From the NCBI GenBank assembly GCA_951406725.2, contig OX597821.1:63984001-64048000 (forward strand): DNA of 64,000 nt, given 5' to 3'. A program made the position numbers. Shown here piece after piece: positions 6,001 through 42,000 of the stretch (positions are counted from its first letter, which is position 1; every line of letters starts with the position of its first letter). The DNA comes from Octopus vulgaris (Eukaryota).

Positions 6001-9000
6001 TGTGTCTACGCGTCCTTGTGCAATGCTTGTGTGTGTAACGGTTAATAGAGTGATAAATCTATACCTTGGCTTCACGTTGAAACATGAGCGGATGTGTTTG
6101 ATAGATAGTGAAATAGTGGGGAGCAGATATGTACTGGCCAATGAATAGACGTCGTTGAGTTTGTAATTGTCGTTGTTGCAAATTCATTGATTATTTTTAA
6201 GAGACACGTCTTTCTGTGCGCCGAAAGTTCGTGTATATTACATGGTGAGTGAATTCAGTTATTCATACTTGCGTGCATATGGACACTCCAGCATATAGCT
6301 TCCTTCATACACACGCACACAGACACGCACATGCACAGACACACATTATATATGTATGTATGTAAATATATATATATATGTGTGTGTGTGTGTAGGCATA
6401 TATATATATATATATATATATATATATATATATAGTGATGCATATATGCCATTTGAATATGGCTAACCCATAAGGGTGGATGCTACTGTAGTTTGTAGCC
6501 CCAGGAAGATATCTCCTCCAGCTGGCTATAGACACACTATCTGTGTCCTGTCAGTATTTGTGAAGGGGAGTCATCATCCCCGTCTTCAACACATGATACA
6601 CACGTACCCGAGTTTCAAGGTGTTTACCTTTCATCAGCGTGTGACAATCATGGTTGTCGATGAGAAGTCAGATCCCTTCACAAATACATATACTTTTTCC
6701 AGTGTCGATTTGTGAAGGGATCTGACTTCTCATCGACTACCATGATTGTCACACGCTGATGAAAGGTAAACACCTTGAAACTCGGGTACGTGTGTATCAT
6801 GTGTTGAAGACGGGGAGGATGACGCCCCTTCACAAATACTGACAGGACACAGATAATGTGTCTATAGCCAGCTGGAGGAGATATCTTCCTGGGGCTACAA
6901 ACTACAGTAGCATCCACCCTTATGGTTTAGCCATATTCAAATGGCATATATACATCACGATGTGTTACCGTTACTGTTTATAACTCGCTCTGAGATTTAT
7001 CATTATATATATATATATGTATATAAATACATACATATATATATACATATATATATATATATATATATATATATATATATATATATATATATATATATAT
7101 ATTATGTATGTATGTACGTATGTATCTATAAATGCTCTAATATCTATACAGCCTTGGTTTTTTTATCACATTACGCAAAAAATTATTATATATATATATA
7201 TATATATATACCGGAGTAAACACATAAATGTGAAACAAGGTGGAAAAAAGAGTACTCAAATACCAGTGGTAGAGTAATATGCTTTATTTTAAGCAGAATC
7301 TAGCAAAAACTGTCTGATGAACGGCAACGATGAAACTCAGAGTAACAGATTTTGTTGAATTTTCTGCTGCTTAAAATAAAGTATATATATATATATATAT
7401 ATATATATATATAATATATAAATATATATATGTATATATATATATATATATATATATATATATGTATATGTAGGTACATATATATAAATATATGTACGTA
7501 TATGTATTCATATATATATAAATATATATATATATATGTATGCAAGTATGTATGTATGTATGTATATATATACACATATATATGTGGAGGCGCGTGGCTT
7601 AGTGGTTAGGGTGTCAGCACCATGATCGTAAGATTGTGGTTTCGATTCCTTGAGCGGGCGACGCGTTGTGTTCTTGGGCAAAACACTTCATTTGACGTTG
7701 CTCCAGTCCACTCAGCCGGCAAAAATTAGTAACGCTGCGAAGGACTGGCGTCCCGTCCAGCTGGGGAACACGAACGTCATAGAAACTGGGAAACCGGGCC
7801 CATGAGCCTGGCTAGGCTTTAAAAGTGCGCATTTATTATTTTATTATTATATACATATATATATATATATATAAAAATAATAGTTATCGCCATACTAATA
7901 TGGCATTCTTATAAAAATAAAAAAAATTTTAAAAAAGCTGTCCGCTTATTAGCTCCATGAGGCCATCGCCTTAAGTTAGCTATTTGATACACAAACTGTA
8001 TCCATATAACCTTCGAACAAGGGAGGTCAGTCGCTCCACACTACTTGACCGTCTGAAACGCGTCTGTAGCTGCCGGTCAAGTAGTGTGGAGCGACTGACC
8101 TCCCTTGTTCGAAGGTTATATGGATACAGTTTGTGTATCAAATAGCTAACTTAAGGCGATGGCCTCATGGAGCTAATAAGCGGACAGCTTTTTTTATTTT
8201 TATAAGAATGCCATATTAGTATGGCGATAACTATTATTTTCCGGGAACGCTGCCGCTGTTCTCTTTTAGAGAGACTTAGTTATTTTAATATTTCTATTAT
8301 ATATATATATATATATATATAAAATAATAGTTATAGCCATACTAATATGGCATTCTTATAAAAATAAGAAAAAAGCTGTCCGCTTATTAGCTCCATGAGG
8401 CCATCGCCTTAAGTTAGCTATTTGATACACAAACTGTATCCATATAACCTTCGAACAAGGGAGGTCAGTCGCTCCACACTACTTGACCGGCAGCTACAGA
8501 CGCGTTTCGGGGTATTGCCCCTTTTCAATGCAGCGTAGCCAGCCAGTAGGTGTCGCTTCCGGTCAAGTAGTGTGGAGCGACTGACCTCCCTTGTTCGAAG
8601 GTTATATGGATACAGTTTGTGTATCAAATAGCTAACTTAAGGCGATGGCCTCATGGAGCTAATAAGCGGACAGCTTTTTTCTTATTTTTATAAGAATGCC
8701 ATATTAGTATGGCTATAACTATTATTTTCCGGGAACGCTGCCGCTGTTCTCTTTTAGAGAGACTTAGTTATTTTAATATTTCTATTATTGAAAACAAGTG
8801 GATGTATTCCACCGAAACTAGGTAAATAAAACCATCGAACAGAGATTGTCGGAAGCGACACCTACTGGCTGGCTACGCTGCATTGAAAAGGGGCAATACC
8901 CCGAAACGCGTCTGTAGCTGCCGGTCAAGTAGTGTGGAGCGACTGACCTCCCTTGTTCGAAGGTTATATGGATACAGTTTGTGTATCAAATAGCTAACTT

Positions 9001-39000: not shown

Positions 39001-42000
39001 TACTGCCTGTTGAATGTTTTTTGATTTGTGTATTTTTGGTAAGCCGTAGAAGTTGCTGGGTTTTGGTTCAAAATTGGTGATGTAGTCTTTTTCATTATCC
39101 GTAAGTGAGTTGTGGTGTGTTGAAATCAGGTTGTTGATCTTTTTCATGATGTGGTGGTCTATATTTGCGGGTATTTCACAATAGAAGGTTGTATCCTTCA
39201 GTTGGTCTTCAACCAAATCCTTATAGTATTCGGTATCCATAATAACAATTGCACCACCTTTATCTGCTTGTTTAATTATTATTGTTTGATCGTTTTGTAT
39301 ACGTTTACATGCAGACATCTCTGATTTGCTAATGTTTGGCCTAACATTGGTATTGCGTCTAAGGGGAAATTTAGACAGGATATCAATGTATTGGTCAAGG
39401 TAGTTATTTCTTCCTTTTGGTGGGGTGAAATTTGATTTATTCCTTACTAGGGATTCATCAATCTCATTACTTTTGTTAGCGAAGAATTCTACAAGTCGTA
39501 ATTTTCGACAGAATTTTTGGATATCCTCCTTTAATTCTTGGTGGTTGGCTGTTGGTGTAGGTGTGAATTTCAGTCCTTTTGACAGAAGTTGGATTTCATC
39601 ATTGTCAAGATCTCTTTTTGATAAATTAATTATTTTAGGATCTATACGTTCAGTTGTTTGGGGTATGTTTCCTCTTGGATTTTTTCTTTCTCCGGTGTTT
39701 GTTGTCCTGACGTAAAAAAATGGATTTTTTTCTGGTTATGATTTATATTCCTGTTGATGTTTGCTTGATGAATTTTGCGTTTTGGTTGTGGTACTTTACT
39801 TGGTTTCGTTATGTTTTCTGTCTTGTTTTTGGTATTATGTATGCTACTTTTCAATTCTTCAATTTCTTCAATTGTGAAGAAATTGTGAAGAAATATATGT
39901 AGGTCAGACGGGAAACGCACTATTAGAACGCTCACGTGTACACCGGCAACAGATTAGAGACCCAGAGGTCCGTCAGATACCTTTGAGTAACCACCTAGCA
40001 ACATGTGGTCGGAAAATATATATAATATTTCCATTCTACAAATTACACAGCCCAAGTGAAATCGAGAGGAAAATCAGAGAAAAGAATTTTATTGATAAAT
40101 TCGAACCCAAGCTAAATAAGCAATAATAATAATACTTAGAGGTATTACTTCCACTGCTACGACCATGACCACTAACAACAACAACAATACTAAAGGTGAT
40201 CAAGACGAAGATAGCAGGAAAATTATCTTATTTAGGGTTAAAAGTTCTATTGCCACCACCATCACCACTAGCAACAATAATTAAGGTGCTGACAATGATG
40301 ATGATGACAATTGAAATATAAAAATATAAAAATCTCTGACAAAGGATATTTACAACATTTCTAAAAATAACCCAACAATTGCTGCTTCGGCCAGGGTCAA
40401 GATACAGGACTCTTGACCTGTCCAACAAAGCATGATGCCTAAACCAATCAGCTCAACCAACCAATCAGCTTAAGTAATTGAGTGATACTACACACTGATT
40501 GGTCAGAATACAGTTTGCAAAACCTAGCACTCTGGAGCCTACCCAGCTGTATTTATAGCACAGAATCACTCATCTTGCTACAGTCAAAAATTGCGAAGCA
40601 TGACTGTCAACACTACTACATGAACCCGAAGATTGCAGAATTCAATGCATGAAAGTACTAGTTCAATCAGAATGAATATTTAACATTCTACTATTTCATT
40701 TTATTTTATTCAATTATAATATATTATCTTATAATATATCATTATAAGATTGTAAATAAAACGTGAAAATCAGACAAGGTTGGAATTCTTTTTATTAATA
40801 TATATATATATATATATATATATATATATATATATATATATATATATATATATATATATATATATATATATATATATATATATATATATATATATATATA
40901 TATATATATATATATATATATATATATATATATATATATATATATATATATATATATATATATATATATATATATATAGGCGTAGGCGTGGCTGTGTTGT
41001 AAGAAGTTTGTTTCCTAACCACATGGTTCCAGGTTCTTTCCTACTGCGTGGTACTTTGGGCAAATATCTTTTATTATAGCCTCGGGCCGACTACAGCTCT
41101 ATGAGTTGTATTTAGTAGAACGAAACGTGTGTACGTGTGAGTGTGTATGTGTGTCTGTGTTTGTTTCCCACTACTACTTTGCAAACGGTGTTGGTATGTT
41201 TACGTCTCCGTGACTAAACGCTTCGGCGAAAGAGATCCAATAGAATAAGTACTGGGGTCCATTCAATCGACTACAAATTTTTCAACCTGGTGTCCCAATA
41301 TGGCCGGAGTCACATTATTAAAACAAATAAAAGTTAAAAGAAATATATCTTTTATAAATATATATATATCCTGGAAAGGAAGAGACTCTTATCTTTCTAT
41401 TAGACACAGTGAGTTGACAAAAAAAAAAGTTTACAGTAAGTGTTTCTATTTTCGCTTTTGTTAAACAATATTTTCATAATTTAGAAATATTTTCAAGTGA
41501 ATGTGATTTCAGAAATGTAAGTTGTTTATACAATAAGTATTCATATTTTAGCTTTCTTTTAACAGACAATATTTTTATGTTTTTTTAAAAAAAATTGTTT
41601 TCTGAATACCATTACAGAAATTTGTTTTGGCATATTCAAAAAAATATTCTAAAATGAAAATGACTTTAGAAACACGGTAAATATTCCGTAACAGACCTGT
41701 TCGTAACCTCGAAACCTCAGTGTGAATTAGTTTATTTCGAGTGCATTCAACGTATCTCACCTCCAAAGATTTGGCTGCTATTTCTAGCACGCCTCGCTAC
41801 TGCATAATAGCTATTTGCGATAAAGGACCCGAAATACCGGTTACGTGGTAGCAGGACGTACAAGACATAGCAGCCAAATCTTTCCTTTTCTAGGGAAAGG
41901 AGCCGTTTGCGCGTGATTTCGATATCACATTCGTTGAAAACATGCGAAATAACCTGGAAAAGTTAAAAATAAAAACAAACACGAAACAAAACTCCGTTGC

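What the first reader, a model, noticed from the sequence alone, without database searches (positions are those of the whole stretch)
6435..40803. Recurrent asymmetric fold-back architecture as a mechanistic footprint
The same layout appears in elements at 6435, 7211, 7873/8321, 10009, 23046, 27462, 28911, 33005 and 36705. Two copies sit in inverted orientation (3' ends outward where polarity can be assigned), and one arm extends about 25-150 nt past the other to end in (TA)n. Sizes run from 160 bp to 4 kb across unrelated sequences. Inverted pseudo-LTRs with an optional short tail are known for Drosophila Penelope. Inference: one GIY-YIG/RT mechanism (nick in (TA)n, then fold-back or template-switch priming) made both coding and non-coding insertions.
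Basis: partly seen in the sequence, partly recalled or inferred. Interest (0 to 1): 0.7.

Follow-up and report, generated by a model that had tools for sequence, protein, structure and literature searches.

The report
Penelope-like retroelement insertions in (TA)n repeats
The recurring lopsided inverted repeats next to (TA)n tracts are real and are the already described insertion signature of Penelope-like retrotransposons and their small ribozyme-carrying dependants, so this is a good example of known biology and not a new mechanism.

Summary
The layout is real. Of 11 inverted-repeat structures measured, 10 have one arm flush with a (TA)n tract. In 9 the other arm stops 31-105 nt short of the next tract. 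Random placement gives 0.06.

Three (7211, 10009, 27462) are single short units with a 17-23 nt terminal stem.

Two elements encode RT plus a C-terminal GIY-YIG nuclease. Hammerhead ribozyme motifs lie in sense orientation in non-coding families B, C and D, and in the 150-nt extension of the degenerate coding element. This ties coding and non-coding insertions to Penelope-like elements (PLEs).

All of it is in print:
- inverted 5'-truncated copies, a one-sided tail and (TA)n bias (PMC8557442);
- cleavage and extension of both DNA strands, with two internal RT start sites whose interval is the tail (PMC11167929).

One modest new lead: one truncated copy begins 0-3 nt from the hammerhead cleavage site. 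Empty sites could not be checked.

The parts
6435..6685 (-). Family B, inverted copy without tail. Its outer end is flush with the (TA)n tract at 6398-6434.
   Evidence: I1: 254-nt arms, 97%, 22-nt spacer.
6599..6643 (-). Type I hammerhead motif in the left arm of B. It has the canonical CUGAUGA and GAAA boxes, a 6-bp helix I, a 5-bp helix II and a self-complementary helix III.
   Evidence: 2 hits against 0 in 50 shuffles.
6686..6961 (+). Family B, direct copy. The arm is 6708-6961, and 6686-6707 is the 22-nt spacer or 5' end. The hammerhead lies at 6750-6794, with cleavage between 6788 and 6789.
6962..7003 (+). Family B 3' tail of 42 nt, present on one arm only and ending at (TA)n. It is homologous to the tail of B'.
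7211..7381 (+). Element F, a single unit of about 170 nt between two (TA)n tracts. A 17-nt stem (7282-7298 / 7365-7381) encloses a weak hammerhead-like core at 7314-7344.
   Evidence: 16 of 17 matched, 66-nt loop; relaxed descriptor, 4 hits against 0.025 expected; no second copy in the window.
7874..8297 (+). Family C, structure C1. It has an inverted arm at 7874-8051 (sense on the minus strand), a direct copy at 8055-8240 and a 57-nt tail at 8241-8297. (TA)n lies on both sides.
   Evidence: (I4, I7).
8322..9147 (+). Family C, structure C2. It has an inverted arm at 8322-8561 (minus sense, no tail) and a 5'-truncated direct copy at 8551-8728 with a tail at 8729-8785. A 62-nt unique stretch follows, then a longer direct copy at 8850-9090 with a tail at 9091-9147. 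This is a partial direct tandem plus an inverted copy.
   Evidence: (I2, I3), and the sequence read.
8877..8918 (+). Family C hammerhead with the U3-A8 core variant (box UUGAAAA), a G10.1-C11.1 helix II, a palindromic helix III (ACGCGU) and a GUC cleavage triplet. A mirror copy lies at 8493-8534 on the minus strand in the inverted arm.
   Evidence: box-agnostic descriptor, 6 hits against 0.08 expected; 3 hits against 0.03; the variant is described for PLEs in PMC4209133 (passage).
10009..10168 (-). Element E, a single unit of about 160 nt. A 22-nt perfect stem (10009-10030 / 10069-10090) encloses a weak hammerhead-like core at 10024-10062 on the minus strand.
   Evidence: no second copy.
23046..25627 (-). 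PLE-2 coding copy. It is 5'-truncated (it starts at residue 185 of the PLE-1 protein) and degenerate, with in-frame stops and a frameshift. Its 3' end at 23046 has no tail and no (TA)n.
   Evidence: ORF pieces; weak RVT_1 and GIY-YIG; 48% and 36% identity to PLE-1.
25628..25948 (+). PLE-2 inverted 3' arm (25628-25798, 97% to 23046-23218) plus a 150-nt extension to (TA)n at 25949. The extension holds a U3-A8 hammerhead at 25820-25851.
27460..27625 (.). Element G, a 23-nt stem (21 matched, 3-nt loop) flush with (TA)n and preceded by about 105 nt of AT-rich sequence. It has no ORF, no hammerhead and no second copy. Its origin is open.
28911..29165 (+). Family B', an independent and shorter insertion. 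It has an inverted arm at 28911-28977 (minus sense, no tail), a direct copy at 28978-29117 and a tail at 29118-29165. The direct copy starts 0-3 nt from the position of B's hammerhead cleavage site.
33005..34661 (-). Element D, long non-coding copy. The 70-nt tail is 33005-33074 and the arm is 33075-33120. A hammerhead with a long helix II and a palindromic helix III lies at 33114-33183.
   Evidence: 46-nt arms, 97.8%; 5 hits against 0.017 expected; no Pfam match to the internal ORFs.
34662..34706 (+). Element D, short inverted arm without tail, flush with (TA)n. It starts 0-8 nt from the hammerhead cleavage position.
36705..39880 (-). PLE-1 coding copy. The 31-nt AC-rich tail is 36705-36735, and the 3' UTR (36736-37407) has CCAAT- and TATA-like boxes. 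The ORF is 37408-39735 (775 aa, RT + C-x4-C-x2-C linker + GIY-YIG). There is no ATG before about residue 148, so the copy is probably slightly 5'-truncated.
39880..40798 (+). PLE-1 inverted 5'-truncated copy. It covers the last 81 codons plus the 3' UTR, has no tail, and is flush with the 181-nt (TA)n tract.
   Evidence: (99.4% over 686 nt).
41859..42163 (.). It is flush with (TA)n on the right only. The nearest tract on the left is 489 nt away.
   Evidence: The Rfam 'MIR8562' match is below the gathering score and reflects only the hairpin shape.
61612..61817 (+). Family J, solo units of about 200 nt with a minimal PLE-type hammerhead (61686-61720) and a 3' end flush with (TA)n. Other copies are 58527-58725 (+, core mutated), 63864-64000 (-, hammerhead at 63958-63992, cut by the window end) and 9778-9903 (-, hammerhead deleted).

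Best explanation
The structures are insertions made by Penelope-like retrotransposons (PLEs). Two are coding elements. PLE-1 is Neptune-like by its motifs, and PLE-2 is a second, degenerate family. The rest are non-autonomous short elements that carry hammerhead ribozymes and borrow the PLE protein.

Proposed sequence of events, shown in vitro for another PLE and inferred here:
1. The RT/GIY-YIG protein, probably a dimer, cuts both strands of an AT-rich target. Here the target is a (TA)n tract.
2. Each 3'-OH primes reverse transcription of an element RNA. Two cDNAs therefore grow towards each other, with their 3' ends outward.
3. Each cDNA stops at its own 5' point, giving variable 5' truncation at the centre, and the two are joined.
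4. Reverse transcription can start at either of two family-specific internal sites in the RNA. An arm started at the distal site keeps the 'tail', and an arm started at the proximal site lacks it. That is the asymmetry.

E, F and G are most likely solo units. Their short inverted repeat is an RNA stem, and in E and F it lies around a hammerhead-like core.
For: Shown in the sequence:
- RT + C-terminal GIY-YIG ORFs sit in two of the structures (GIY-YIG 24.8 bits against a cut-off of 22.6; RVT_1 27.9 bits, just under its cut-off of 29.6).
- The translation shows the DKG motif, a C-x4-C-x2-C linker and two Cys inside GIY-YIG. The three linker Cys are invariant in 12 homologues.
- 700 homologues share the same architecture.
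- Sense-oriented hammerheads are found in B (both arms), C (both orientations), D, the PLE-2 extension and J. The counts are: 2 hits against 0 in 50 shuffles, 5 against 0.017, 6 against 0.08, 3 against 0.03.
- The same script finds one hammerhead per 3083-bp unit in an unrelated tandem PLE (L006-L008), which serves as a positive control. It also finds a U3-A8 hammerhead about 190 nt after the ORF match of relative L005.
- The tail belongs to the element. B and B' lie 22 kb apart, are 80-87% identical, share a homologous tail, and have tail-less arms that stop at the same alignment column.
- In C2 the tail is followed by further sequence with no (TA)n.
- Arms are unequal at the centre in 5 of 8 two-copy structures.

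From papers:
- Inverted 5'-truncated copy, 30-40 bp tail at either end, and (TA)n bias in Naiad and Hydra. The CX2-5CxxC linker is proposed to mediate microsatellite bias in Neptune (PMC8557442; passages and section 11).
- Both strands are cleaved and extended, there are two internal RT start sites whose interval is the tail, and targets are AT-rich (PMC11167929; main text).
- Dual hammerheads 100-700 bp apart on opposite strands, and the U3-A8 core variant in PLEs (PMC4209133; passages).
Against: - No hammerhead was found in PLE-1 with any descriptor.
- The non-coding families share no detectable sequence with the 3' ends of PLE-1 or PLE-2. No autonomous partner for them is identified in this window.
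- Rfam's own hammerhead models reported nothing: one search gave 0 matches at gathering score, and none of the 10 matches listed was a hammerhead. The ribozyme calls therefore rest on my descriptors. I ran seven descriptor scans in all (one search used four settings), so there is some multiple testing.
- Tails here are 31-150 nt, and only PLE-1's falls in the published 30-40 bp range.
- PLE-2 has no (TA)n at its coding end, and it carries the extension on the short arm.
- Equal arms with tiny loops in B, C1 and H would also fit snap-back synthesis or transposition of a pre-formed fold-back.
- E and F have weak helix II and lack the G10.1-C11.1 pair.
- G has no supporting feature at all.
- Whether (TA)n pre-existed at the sites was not tested.
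- SINE copies in the window also touch (TA)n in some cases (heads 3 of 11, tails 3 of 11).
Confidence: 0.78

Rival explanations
1. One reading: a single target-primed reverse transcription from a nick in (TA)n. The cDNA then folds back, or the enzyme switches template onto the nascent cDNA, and this makes the second arm. The tail is the part the return copy fails to reach.
For: B (254/254 nt, 22-nt spacer), C1 (178/197 nt) and H (about 150/150 nt, 3-nt loop) are nearly symmetric about their centres. A return copy that stops early would also leave a one-sided tail.
Against: A snap-back arm must begin with the innermost sequence of the first copy. In PLE-1, PLE-2, B', C2 and D the short arm consists only of the 3'-most part of the element and abuts a much longer copy. 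B and B' stop at the same column, which points to a defined start site and not to a stalled return copy. In vitro the PLE protein extends both strands (PMC11167929).
Confidence: 0.1
2. The non-coding fold-backs are MITE-like or Foldback-type DNA transposons that insert at TA dinucleotides. The flanking (TA)n then reflects target duplications or microsatellite growth.
For: They are short, non-coding, largely palindromic and flanked by TA on both sides. Internal deletions could explain the shorter B'.
Against: - The termini are not symmetric. One end carries a 42-70 nt family-specific tail outside the repeat.
- The same layout occurs on two RT/GIY-YIG elements.
- Sense-oriented hammerheads are present.
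- C2 contains a direct partial tandem.
- No transposase is present in or near them (one search found none among the 12 ORFs tested).
Confidence: 0.03
3. (TA)n is a product and not the target. The telomerase-related RT, or later microsatellite expansion from a TA-rich junction, creates the (TA)n tracts at element ends. This concerns the target step only and is compatible with PLE authorship.
For: Every family ends in (TA)n at its outer ends. No empty site was seen, and PLE RTs are the sister group of telomerase RTs (PMC8557442 abstract).
Against: - Most of the 130 tracts counted are not next to any of these elements.
- The internal tail-to-next-copy junction in C2 has no (TA)n.
- PLE-2's coding end has none.
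- In vitro, the enzyme cleaves pre-existing AT-rich DNA, and no repeat addition was reported (PMC11167929).
- Several elements are packed into two long (TA)n-rich stretches at 6.4-7.6 kb and 7.9-10.2 kb, as expected if a pre-existing tract was hit repeatedly.
Confidence: 0.1
4. The palindromes arise from DNA breakage and hairpin repair at cruciform-prone (TA)n tracts, or from assembly artefacts, with no transposition involved.
For: Long (TA)n tracts are fragile and self-complementary. Inverted duplications are a known assembly problem for PLEs (PMC8557442).
Against: - The arms are 92-99% identical and not 100%, so they are not read artefacts.
- The same family with the same arm and tail boundaries occurs at two distant sites (B and B').
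- The arms are element sequence (ORF, UTR, ribozyme) and not local flanking DNA.
Confidence: 0.02

Closest known systems
Canonical EN+ Penelope-like elements, Neptune-type (RT + CX2-5CxxC linker + CCHH GIY-YIG)
   Same: The domain order, the DKG motif, the linker and the two Cys in the GIY-YIG core are shared. So are an inverted 5'-truncated upstream copy, a one-sided 31-nt tail and insertion in a microsatellite. PLE-2 has a hammerhead in its terminal non-coding region.
   Different: No hammerhead was detected in PLE-1. Clade placement by RT phylogeny was not done. PLE-2's extension is 150 nt, not 30-40.
Poseidon PAc of Anolis carolinensis, characterised in vitro (PMC11167929)
   Same: Two-strand cleavage and extension, an AT-rich target, and two internal RT start sites whose interval is the tail. 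Together these predict exactly the head-to-head, one-tailed layout seen here. The hammerhead lies about 100 nt upstream of the distal 3' end in PLE-2, D and J (97, 109 and about 100 nt, computed). PAc shows roughly 85-92 nt by my arithmetic from the text.
   Different: PAc belongs to a different clade with no linker. It mostly re-inserts as tandems. That study found no reads beginning at the hammerhead cut site, whereas copy B' here begins within 0-3 nt of it.
Metazoan non-LTR retrozymes and dispersed PLE-type minimal hammerheads (PMC7229834, PMC4209133; bioRxiv 10.64898/2026.07.22.740005, abstract only)
   Same: These are short (150-450 bp) non-coding units with type I hammerheads and a short palindromic helix III, proposed to be mobilised by PLEs. 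The U3-A8 core variant and pairs of motifs on opposite strands 100-700 bp apart were reported for Schistosoma.
   Different: Retrozymes are defined as head-to-tail tandem arrays that give circular RNAs. B and D are head-to-head pairs, and C is mixed. RNA circularity is untestable here.
L1 'twin priming' inversions (recalled, not read)
   Same: A second priming event from the other DNA strand creates an inverted segment within one insertion.
   Different: Twin priming copies non-overlapping parts of one RNA, giving an inversion without duplication. Here both arms are overlapping copies of the same 3' region.

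Membership tests
Penelope-like elements (EN+, C-terminal endonuclease) | Single ORF with a PLE-type reverse transcriptase (DKG motif, RT core) | tested here: met
   PLE-1: RVT_1 E=2.3e-6, though 27.9 bits is below the curated 29.6. The DKG motif is visible in the translation. There are 700 homologues, the best at 65% identity, with RT + GIY-YIG precomputed domains. PLE-2 aligns to residues 185-773.
Penelope-like elements (EN+, C-terminal endonuclease) | C-terminal GIY-YIG endonuclease with internal CCHH | tested here: met
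   PF01541 scores 24.8 bits, above the cut-off of 22.6, at residues 687-773. Two Cys between GIY and YIG, and downstream His residues, were seen by eye. PLE-2 scores only 18 bits.
Neptune/Nematis-type PLEs | CX2-5CxxC zinc-finger-like linker upstream of GIY-YIG | tested here: met
   C-x4-C-x2-C is present in PLE-1. C650, C655 and C658 are invariant in 12 aligned homologues. The feature definition comes from PMC8557442.
Neptune clade | Placement within Neptune in an RT phylogeny with reference PLEs | not tested
Penelope-like elements | Pseudo-LTRs: partial direct tandem and/or an inverted 5'-truncated copy | tested here: met
   Inverted 3' arms are present in PLE-1 and PLE-2. C2 shows an inverted copy plus a direct partial tandem.
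Penelope-like elements | One-sided 'tail' extension, the interval between two RT start sites | tested here: met
   Tails are 31 nt (PLE-1), 42 and 48 (B, B'), 57 (C), 70 (D) and 150 (PLE-2). The boundary is the same in B and B'. Only PLE-1's length is within the published 30-40 bp.
Penelope-like elements | Hammerhead ribozyme motif in the pseudo-LTR | tested here: inconclusive
   Met for PLE-2 (U3-A8 variant) and for non-coding B, C, D and J. Not found in PLE-1. Rfam's own models reported none.
Metazoan non-LTR retrozymes | Head-to-tail tandem repeats of 150-450 bp, each with a type I hammerhead | tested here: not met
   B and D are head-to-head. C2 has two direct copies, but only one retains the hammerhead. 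J, E and F are solo units.
Metazoan non-LTR retrozymes | Expression as self-cleaved linear and circular RNAs | not testable with these tools
   No transcriptome data were available.
MITE / Foldback DNA transposons | Symmetric terminal inverted repeats reaching both element ends | tested here: not met
   One end carries a 31-150 nt non-repeated, family-specific tail.
MITE / Foldback DNA transposons | Fixed-length target-site duplication | tested here: inconclusive
   The flanks are (TA)n, so any duplication is invisible.

The most novel reading that the evidence does not exclude
Self-cleaved hammerhead RNA is a real in vivo template for PLE-type integration.
- Copy B' begins 0-3 nt from the cleavage site of its family's ribozyme.
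- The short arm of D begins 0-8 nt from its own site.

The self-complementary helix III, which makes these ribozymes work as RNA dimers, might also deliver two RNAs to a dimeric enzyme. That would explain head-to-head double insertions. The tail interval would then be a family-specific, tunable distance (31-150 nt) between two RT entry sites, and not a fixed 30-40 bp.
Probability: 0.15. Interest if true: 0.55.

Novelty: new member of a known kind. Interest (0 to 1): 0.3.

Why it matters
The window is a compact natural display of the Penelope-like insertion signature. Coding and ribozyme-bearing non-coding elements appear side by side in (TA)n tracts. This helps annotate such genomes, where these structures are routinely misread as MITEs, miRNA hairpins or assembly errors.

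It also gives in vivo footprints that agree with the 2024 in vitro model of two-strand priming and two RT start sites. It does not reveal a new mechanism.

The one point that could add to the field is the copy starting at the hammerhead cut site. The role of these ribozymes in PLE mobility is still open (PMC8557442, PMC11167929). It is a single post hoc case and needs genome-wide counts.

Tried and rejected
- **Rfam.** At gathering score there were 0 matches in 64 kb. In E-value mode on the window there were 472 matches, of which the top 150 are listed. All of those are sub-threshold microRNA, snoRNA or viral-UTR models that match hairpins and (TA)n/(CA)n, and none is a hammerhead. On 6436-7003, 10 matches were returned and none was a hammerhead. 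I therefore wrote my own descriptors, with shuffles and a positive control.
- **Covariance model of the hammerheads.** MAFFT misaligned the GAAA boxes of 4 sequences, and I may not type a hand alignment, so I dropped this.
- **Single-strand folding of three motifs**. Z-scores were -1.4 to -2.1, which is not decisive.
- **First terminal-hairpin scans**. These were inconclusive. Low-complexity matches, and random start points falling inside the same large arms, inflated the control: 38 of 260 boundaries against 236 of 4000 random positions, then 7 of 260 against 110 of 6000. I replaced them with the end-placement test.
- **Genome-contig scans.** The scan with the single protein gave 98 pattern matches and 0 confirmed. 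The scan with a 12-protein alignment gave 11 confirmed stretches in 10 loci. All are short contigs from metagenome-assembled genomes (MAGs) that consist of the element itself, with no flanks, so they gave no test of (TA)n or tails. They served only as a ribozyme control.
- **Similarity between 3' ends.** None was found between the non-coding families and PLE-1 or PLE-2.
- **Helitron reading.** I rejected it by eye: the termini do not match the Helitron end motifs as I recall them (TC at the 5' end, CTRR at the 3' end).
- Other copies, empty sites and the source genome's PLE families therefore stayed unchecked. I did not open the supplements of PMC8557442 (family lists and hammerhead tables, including cephalopod families), and they may bear on whether these families are already catalogued. 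The bioRxiv supplements are closed.

Full report
**Setting.** The window is AT-rich (GC about 0.25-0.42 in 2-kb bins) and has no N. (TA)n is very common: 117 tracts covering 3,617 bp, or 5.6%. Lying next to (TA)n is therefore not remarkable in itself and had to be tested.

**The observation.** The repeat finder on 6000-11500 and a self-BLAST of the whole window (109 inverted and 117 direct HSPs) gave the local inverted repeats. I read the sequence at each site. Those with arms of at least 40 nt, at least 90% identity and no more than 5 kb apart are:
- B (6432-6685 / 6708-6961, 97%)
- C1 and C2 (7874-8240 and 8321-9090, 98-99%)
- PLE-2 (23046-23218 / 25628-25798, 97.1%)
- B' (28914-28977 / 29054-29117, 92.2%)
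- D (33075-33120 / 34662-34707, 97.8%)
- PLE-1 (36642-37654 / 39880-40894 including (TA)n, 98.5%)
- H (41859-42163, self-complementary, 99%)
- pairs of family K (42913 or 43238 against 43593)
- one pair of SINE ends (17212 / 21051)

I did not enter the K pairs or the SINE pair in the layout test, because they are separate insertions and not one structure.

**Layout test.** Nine also have the other arm 20-160 nt short of the next tract (31, 42, 48, 57, 57, 70, 71, 76 and 105 nt). Random placement of the same spans gave means of 0.22 and 0.06 (2000 trials, maximum 2).
- PLE-2 is the exception on flushness. It has a 150-nt extension on its short arm and no (TA)n at its other end.
- H is flush on one side only, with 489 nt on the other.
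- As a comparator, a SINE family touches (TA)n much less regularly: heads within 6 nt in 3 of 11 copies, and tails within 5 nt in 3 of 11.

**Coding content.** Twelve of the 96 stop-to-stop ORFs of at least 100 aa were scanned against Pfam.
- The 775-aa ORF at 37408-39735 (minus strand) has RVT_1 (27.9 bits, just under its cut-off) and GIY-YIG (24.8 bits, above its cut-off).
- Its translation shows the DKG motif, a C-x4-C-x2-C linker and two Cys inside the GIY-YIG core.
- By the criteria quoted in PMC8557442, these features mark canonical C-terminal-EN PLEs of the Neptune/Nematis kind. They exclude Hydra, which has no CCHH and a CxCX5C linker.
- It has 700 homologues, the best at 65% identity. 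The named ones are from bivalves or from symbiont bins that evidently contain host DNA.
- There is no ATG before about residue 148, so this copy is probably slightly 5'-truncated.
- PLE-2 (25622 down to 23842, minus strand) aligns to residues 185-773 at 48% and 36% identity and is broken.
- The right arm of PLE-1 repeats the last 81 codons plus the 3' UTR in the opposite orientation. The 3' ends therefore point outward, and the 31-nt tail sits on the coding copy.

**Ribozymes.** Reading family B, I saw a hammerhead core and wrote descriptor scans, each with shuffled controls.
- Strict type I descriptor: 2 hits, one in each arm of B, each in the sense that points outward; 0 in 50 shuffles.
- Allowing the extra nucleotide after position 9: adds two minimal PLE-type motifs in family J (4 hits, 0 in 30 shuffles).
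- Requiring a self-complementary helix III and allowing a long helix II: 5 hits against 0.017 expected, adding D at 33114-33183 on the minus strand.
- A descriptor blind to the 5' box: only B and family C, 6 hits against 0.08.
- C's box is UUGAAAA, which is the compensatory U3-A8 form of the C3-G8 pair. Cervera and de la Pena reported this form for a schistosome PLE (PMC4209133, passage).
- Scanning for that core: C (both orientations) and a motif at 25820-25851 inside the 150-nt extension of PLE-2; 3 hits against 0.03 (relaxed form 3 against 0.125).
- A relaxed canonical scan: adds weak motifs in F and E, 4 hits against 0.025. Both lack the G10.1-C11.1 pair.
- Positive control: the scripts find one motif per 3,083-bp unit of a tandem PLE (L006-L008) and a U3-A8 motif after the ORF of relative L005.

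Caveats. No motif was found in PLE-1, G or H. Rfam reported no hammerhead (for the 150 rows listed, and 21). I ran seven descriptor scans in all.

**What the anatomy says.**
1. The tail belongs to the element. B and B' are independent insertions 22 kb apart and 80-87% identical. They have homologous tails, and their tail-less arms stop at the same alignment column.
2. The outer ends are constant and the centres vary: B 254/254 (+22), B' 67/about 140, C1 178/197, C2 241/178 followed by a second direct copy, D 46/about 1,600, PLE-1 919/3,145, PLE-2 171/about 2,580. That is the pattern of two 5'-truncated cDNAs meeting.
3. C2 combines an inverted copy with two direct copies, each followed by the same tail. 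The first tail runs on into unique sequence without (TA)n. This is the partial-tandem (pseudo-LTR) habit of PLEs.
4. These are solo units, not fold-backs. G has nothing beyond a stem.

**Mechanism.** Frangieh et al. (PMC11167929; I read the abstract and the whole main text) showed that a purified Poseidon protein does the following:
- it cleaves and extends both strands of an AT-rich target;
- it starts reverse transcription at two adjacent internal RNA sites that are not homologous to the target;
- the genomic tail is the interval between those two sites.

That model predicts every feature here: outward 3' ends, independent 5' truncation, and one arm with a family-specific tail and one without. 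It is inferred here, not shown.

It remains possible for the symmetric B, C1 and H.

**A possible addition.** The direct copy of B' starts at 28978-28981. This corresponds to 0-3 nt from the cleavage site in B (between 6788 and 6789). MAFFT and a local aligner differ in the first few columns, and the solid homology starts 2 nt after the site. D's short arm starts 0-8 nt from its own site, in low-complexity sequence. C1 and the middle copy of C2 start about 10-13 nt before and 9-12 nt after their site, so they do not fit. With one clear case out of four, found after the fact, this is a lead only. It is of interest because Frangieh et al. saw no reads starting at the cut site.

**What is known, and novelty.**
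- Inverted 5'-truncated copies, a tail at either end and microsatellite bias are in PMC8557442 (passages and section 11).
- Dual hammerheads on opposite strands and the massive dispersal of solo motifs are in PMC4209133 (passages).
- Short non-autonomous hammerhead elements are in PMC7229834 (passages) and in a 2026 preprint (10.64898/2026.07.22.740005, abstract and outline only).

I therefore file the finding as new members of a known kind.

My four literature searches did not turn up a description of these particular families. I did not open the supplementary family lists of PMC8557442, which include cephalopods.

**Limits.** No eukaryotic genome collection was available. Empty sites, further copies and the autonomous partners of B, C and D remain unchecked.

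Noticed in passing
window 58527-58725, 61612-61817, 63864-64000, 9778-9903: Family J: solo units of about 200 nt with a minimal PLE-type hammerhead, intact in two copies, mutated in one and deleted in one. The 3' end is flush with (TA)n in three of the four copies.
   Followed up: partly
window 42190-43700: Family K: a shared 3' module of about 120 nt (42248-42370, 42753-42875, 43035-43158) sits behind different 5' parts. Two copies end at (TA)n. A 5' module is repeated at 42914 and 43239 and inverted at 43593-43688. This looks like another non-autonomous retroelement family using (TA)n. No hammerhead was found.
   Followed up: partly
window 45918-49387 (+): A non-LTR (LINE-type) element. One ORF has weak Myb/SANT-like and CCCH matches. 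It is followed by an ORF with an AP-type endonuclease (Exo_endo_phos) and RVT_1 at 83 bits. It is unrelated to the PLEs.
   Followed up: no
window 13272-58901 (11 copies, e.g. 32808-32975, 27815-27973, 40985-41124): An abundant SINE of about 170 nt with a tRNA-like head. Some copies abut (TA)n at the head (3 of 11) or the tail (3 of 11). Its 3' end runs into TA-rich sequence, so part of the (TA)n load may come from SINE tails. A different tRNA-like repeat lies at 7583-7830.
   Followed up: partly
window 6367-7575 and 7856-10226: Two long (TA)n-rich stretches hold B and F in the first, and C1, C2, a J copy and E in the second. The insertions are packed as if a long microsatellite acted as a repeated landing pad.
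   Followed up: no
window 41890-42132 and many (TA)n/(CA)n sites: Rfam in E-value mode reports dozens of sub-threshold 'microRNA precursor' matches (MIR8562, mir-297, mir-3149 and others) on fold-back elements and microsatellites. These are hairpin-shape artefacts and a likely source of false miRNA annotation.
   Followed up: yes
L006-L008 (one 12.4-kb contig), L001-L005, L009: Contigs filed under bacterial metagenome bins encode PLEs. One is a four-copy tandem of a 3,083-bp unit with one hammerhead per unit. They look like animal-host DNA binned with symbiont genomes.
   Followed up: partly
window 36980-37110 (minus-sense 3' UTR of PLE-1; mirror at 40390-40560): Three CCAAT-like boxes and a TATA-like box lie in the 3' UTR, as expected if this region serves as a pseudo-LTR promoter in tandem copies. 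This was seen by eye only.
   Followed up: no
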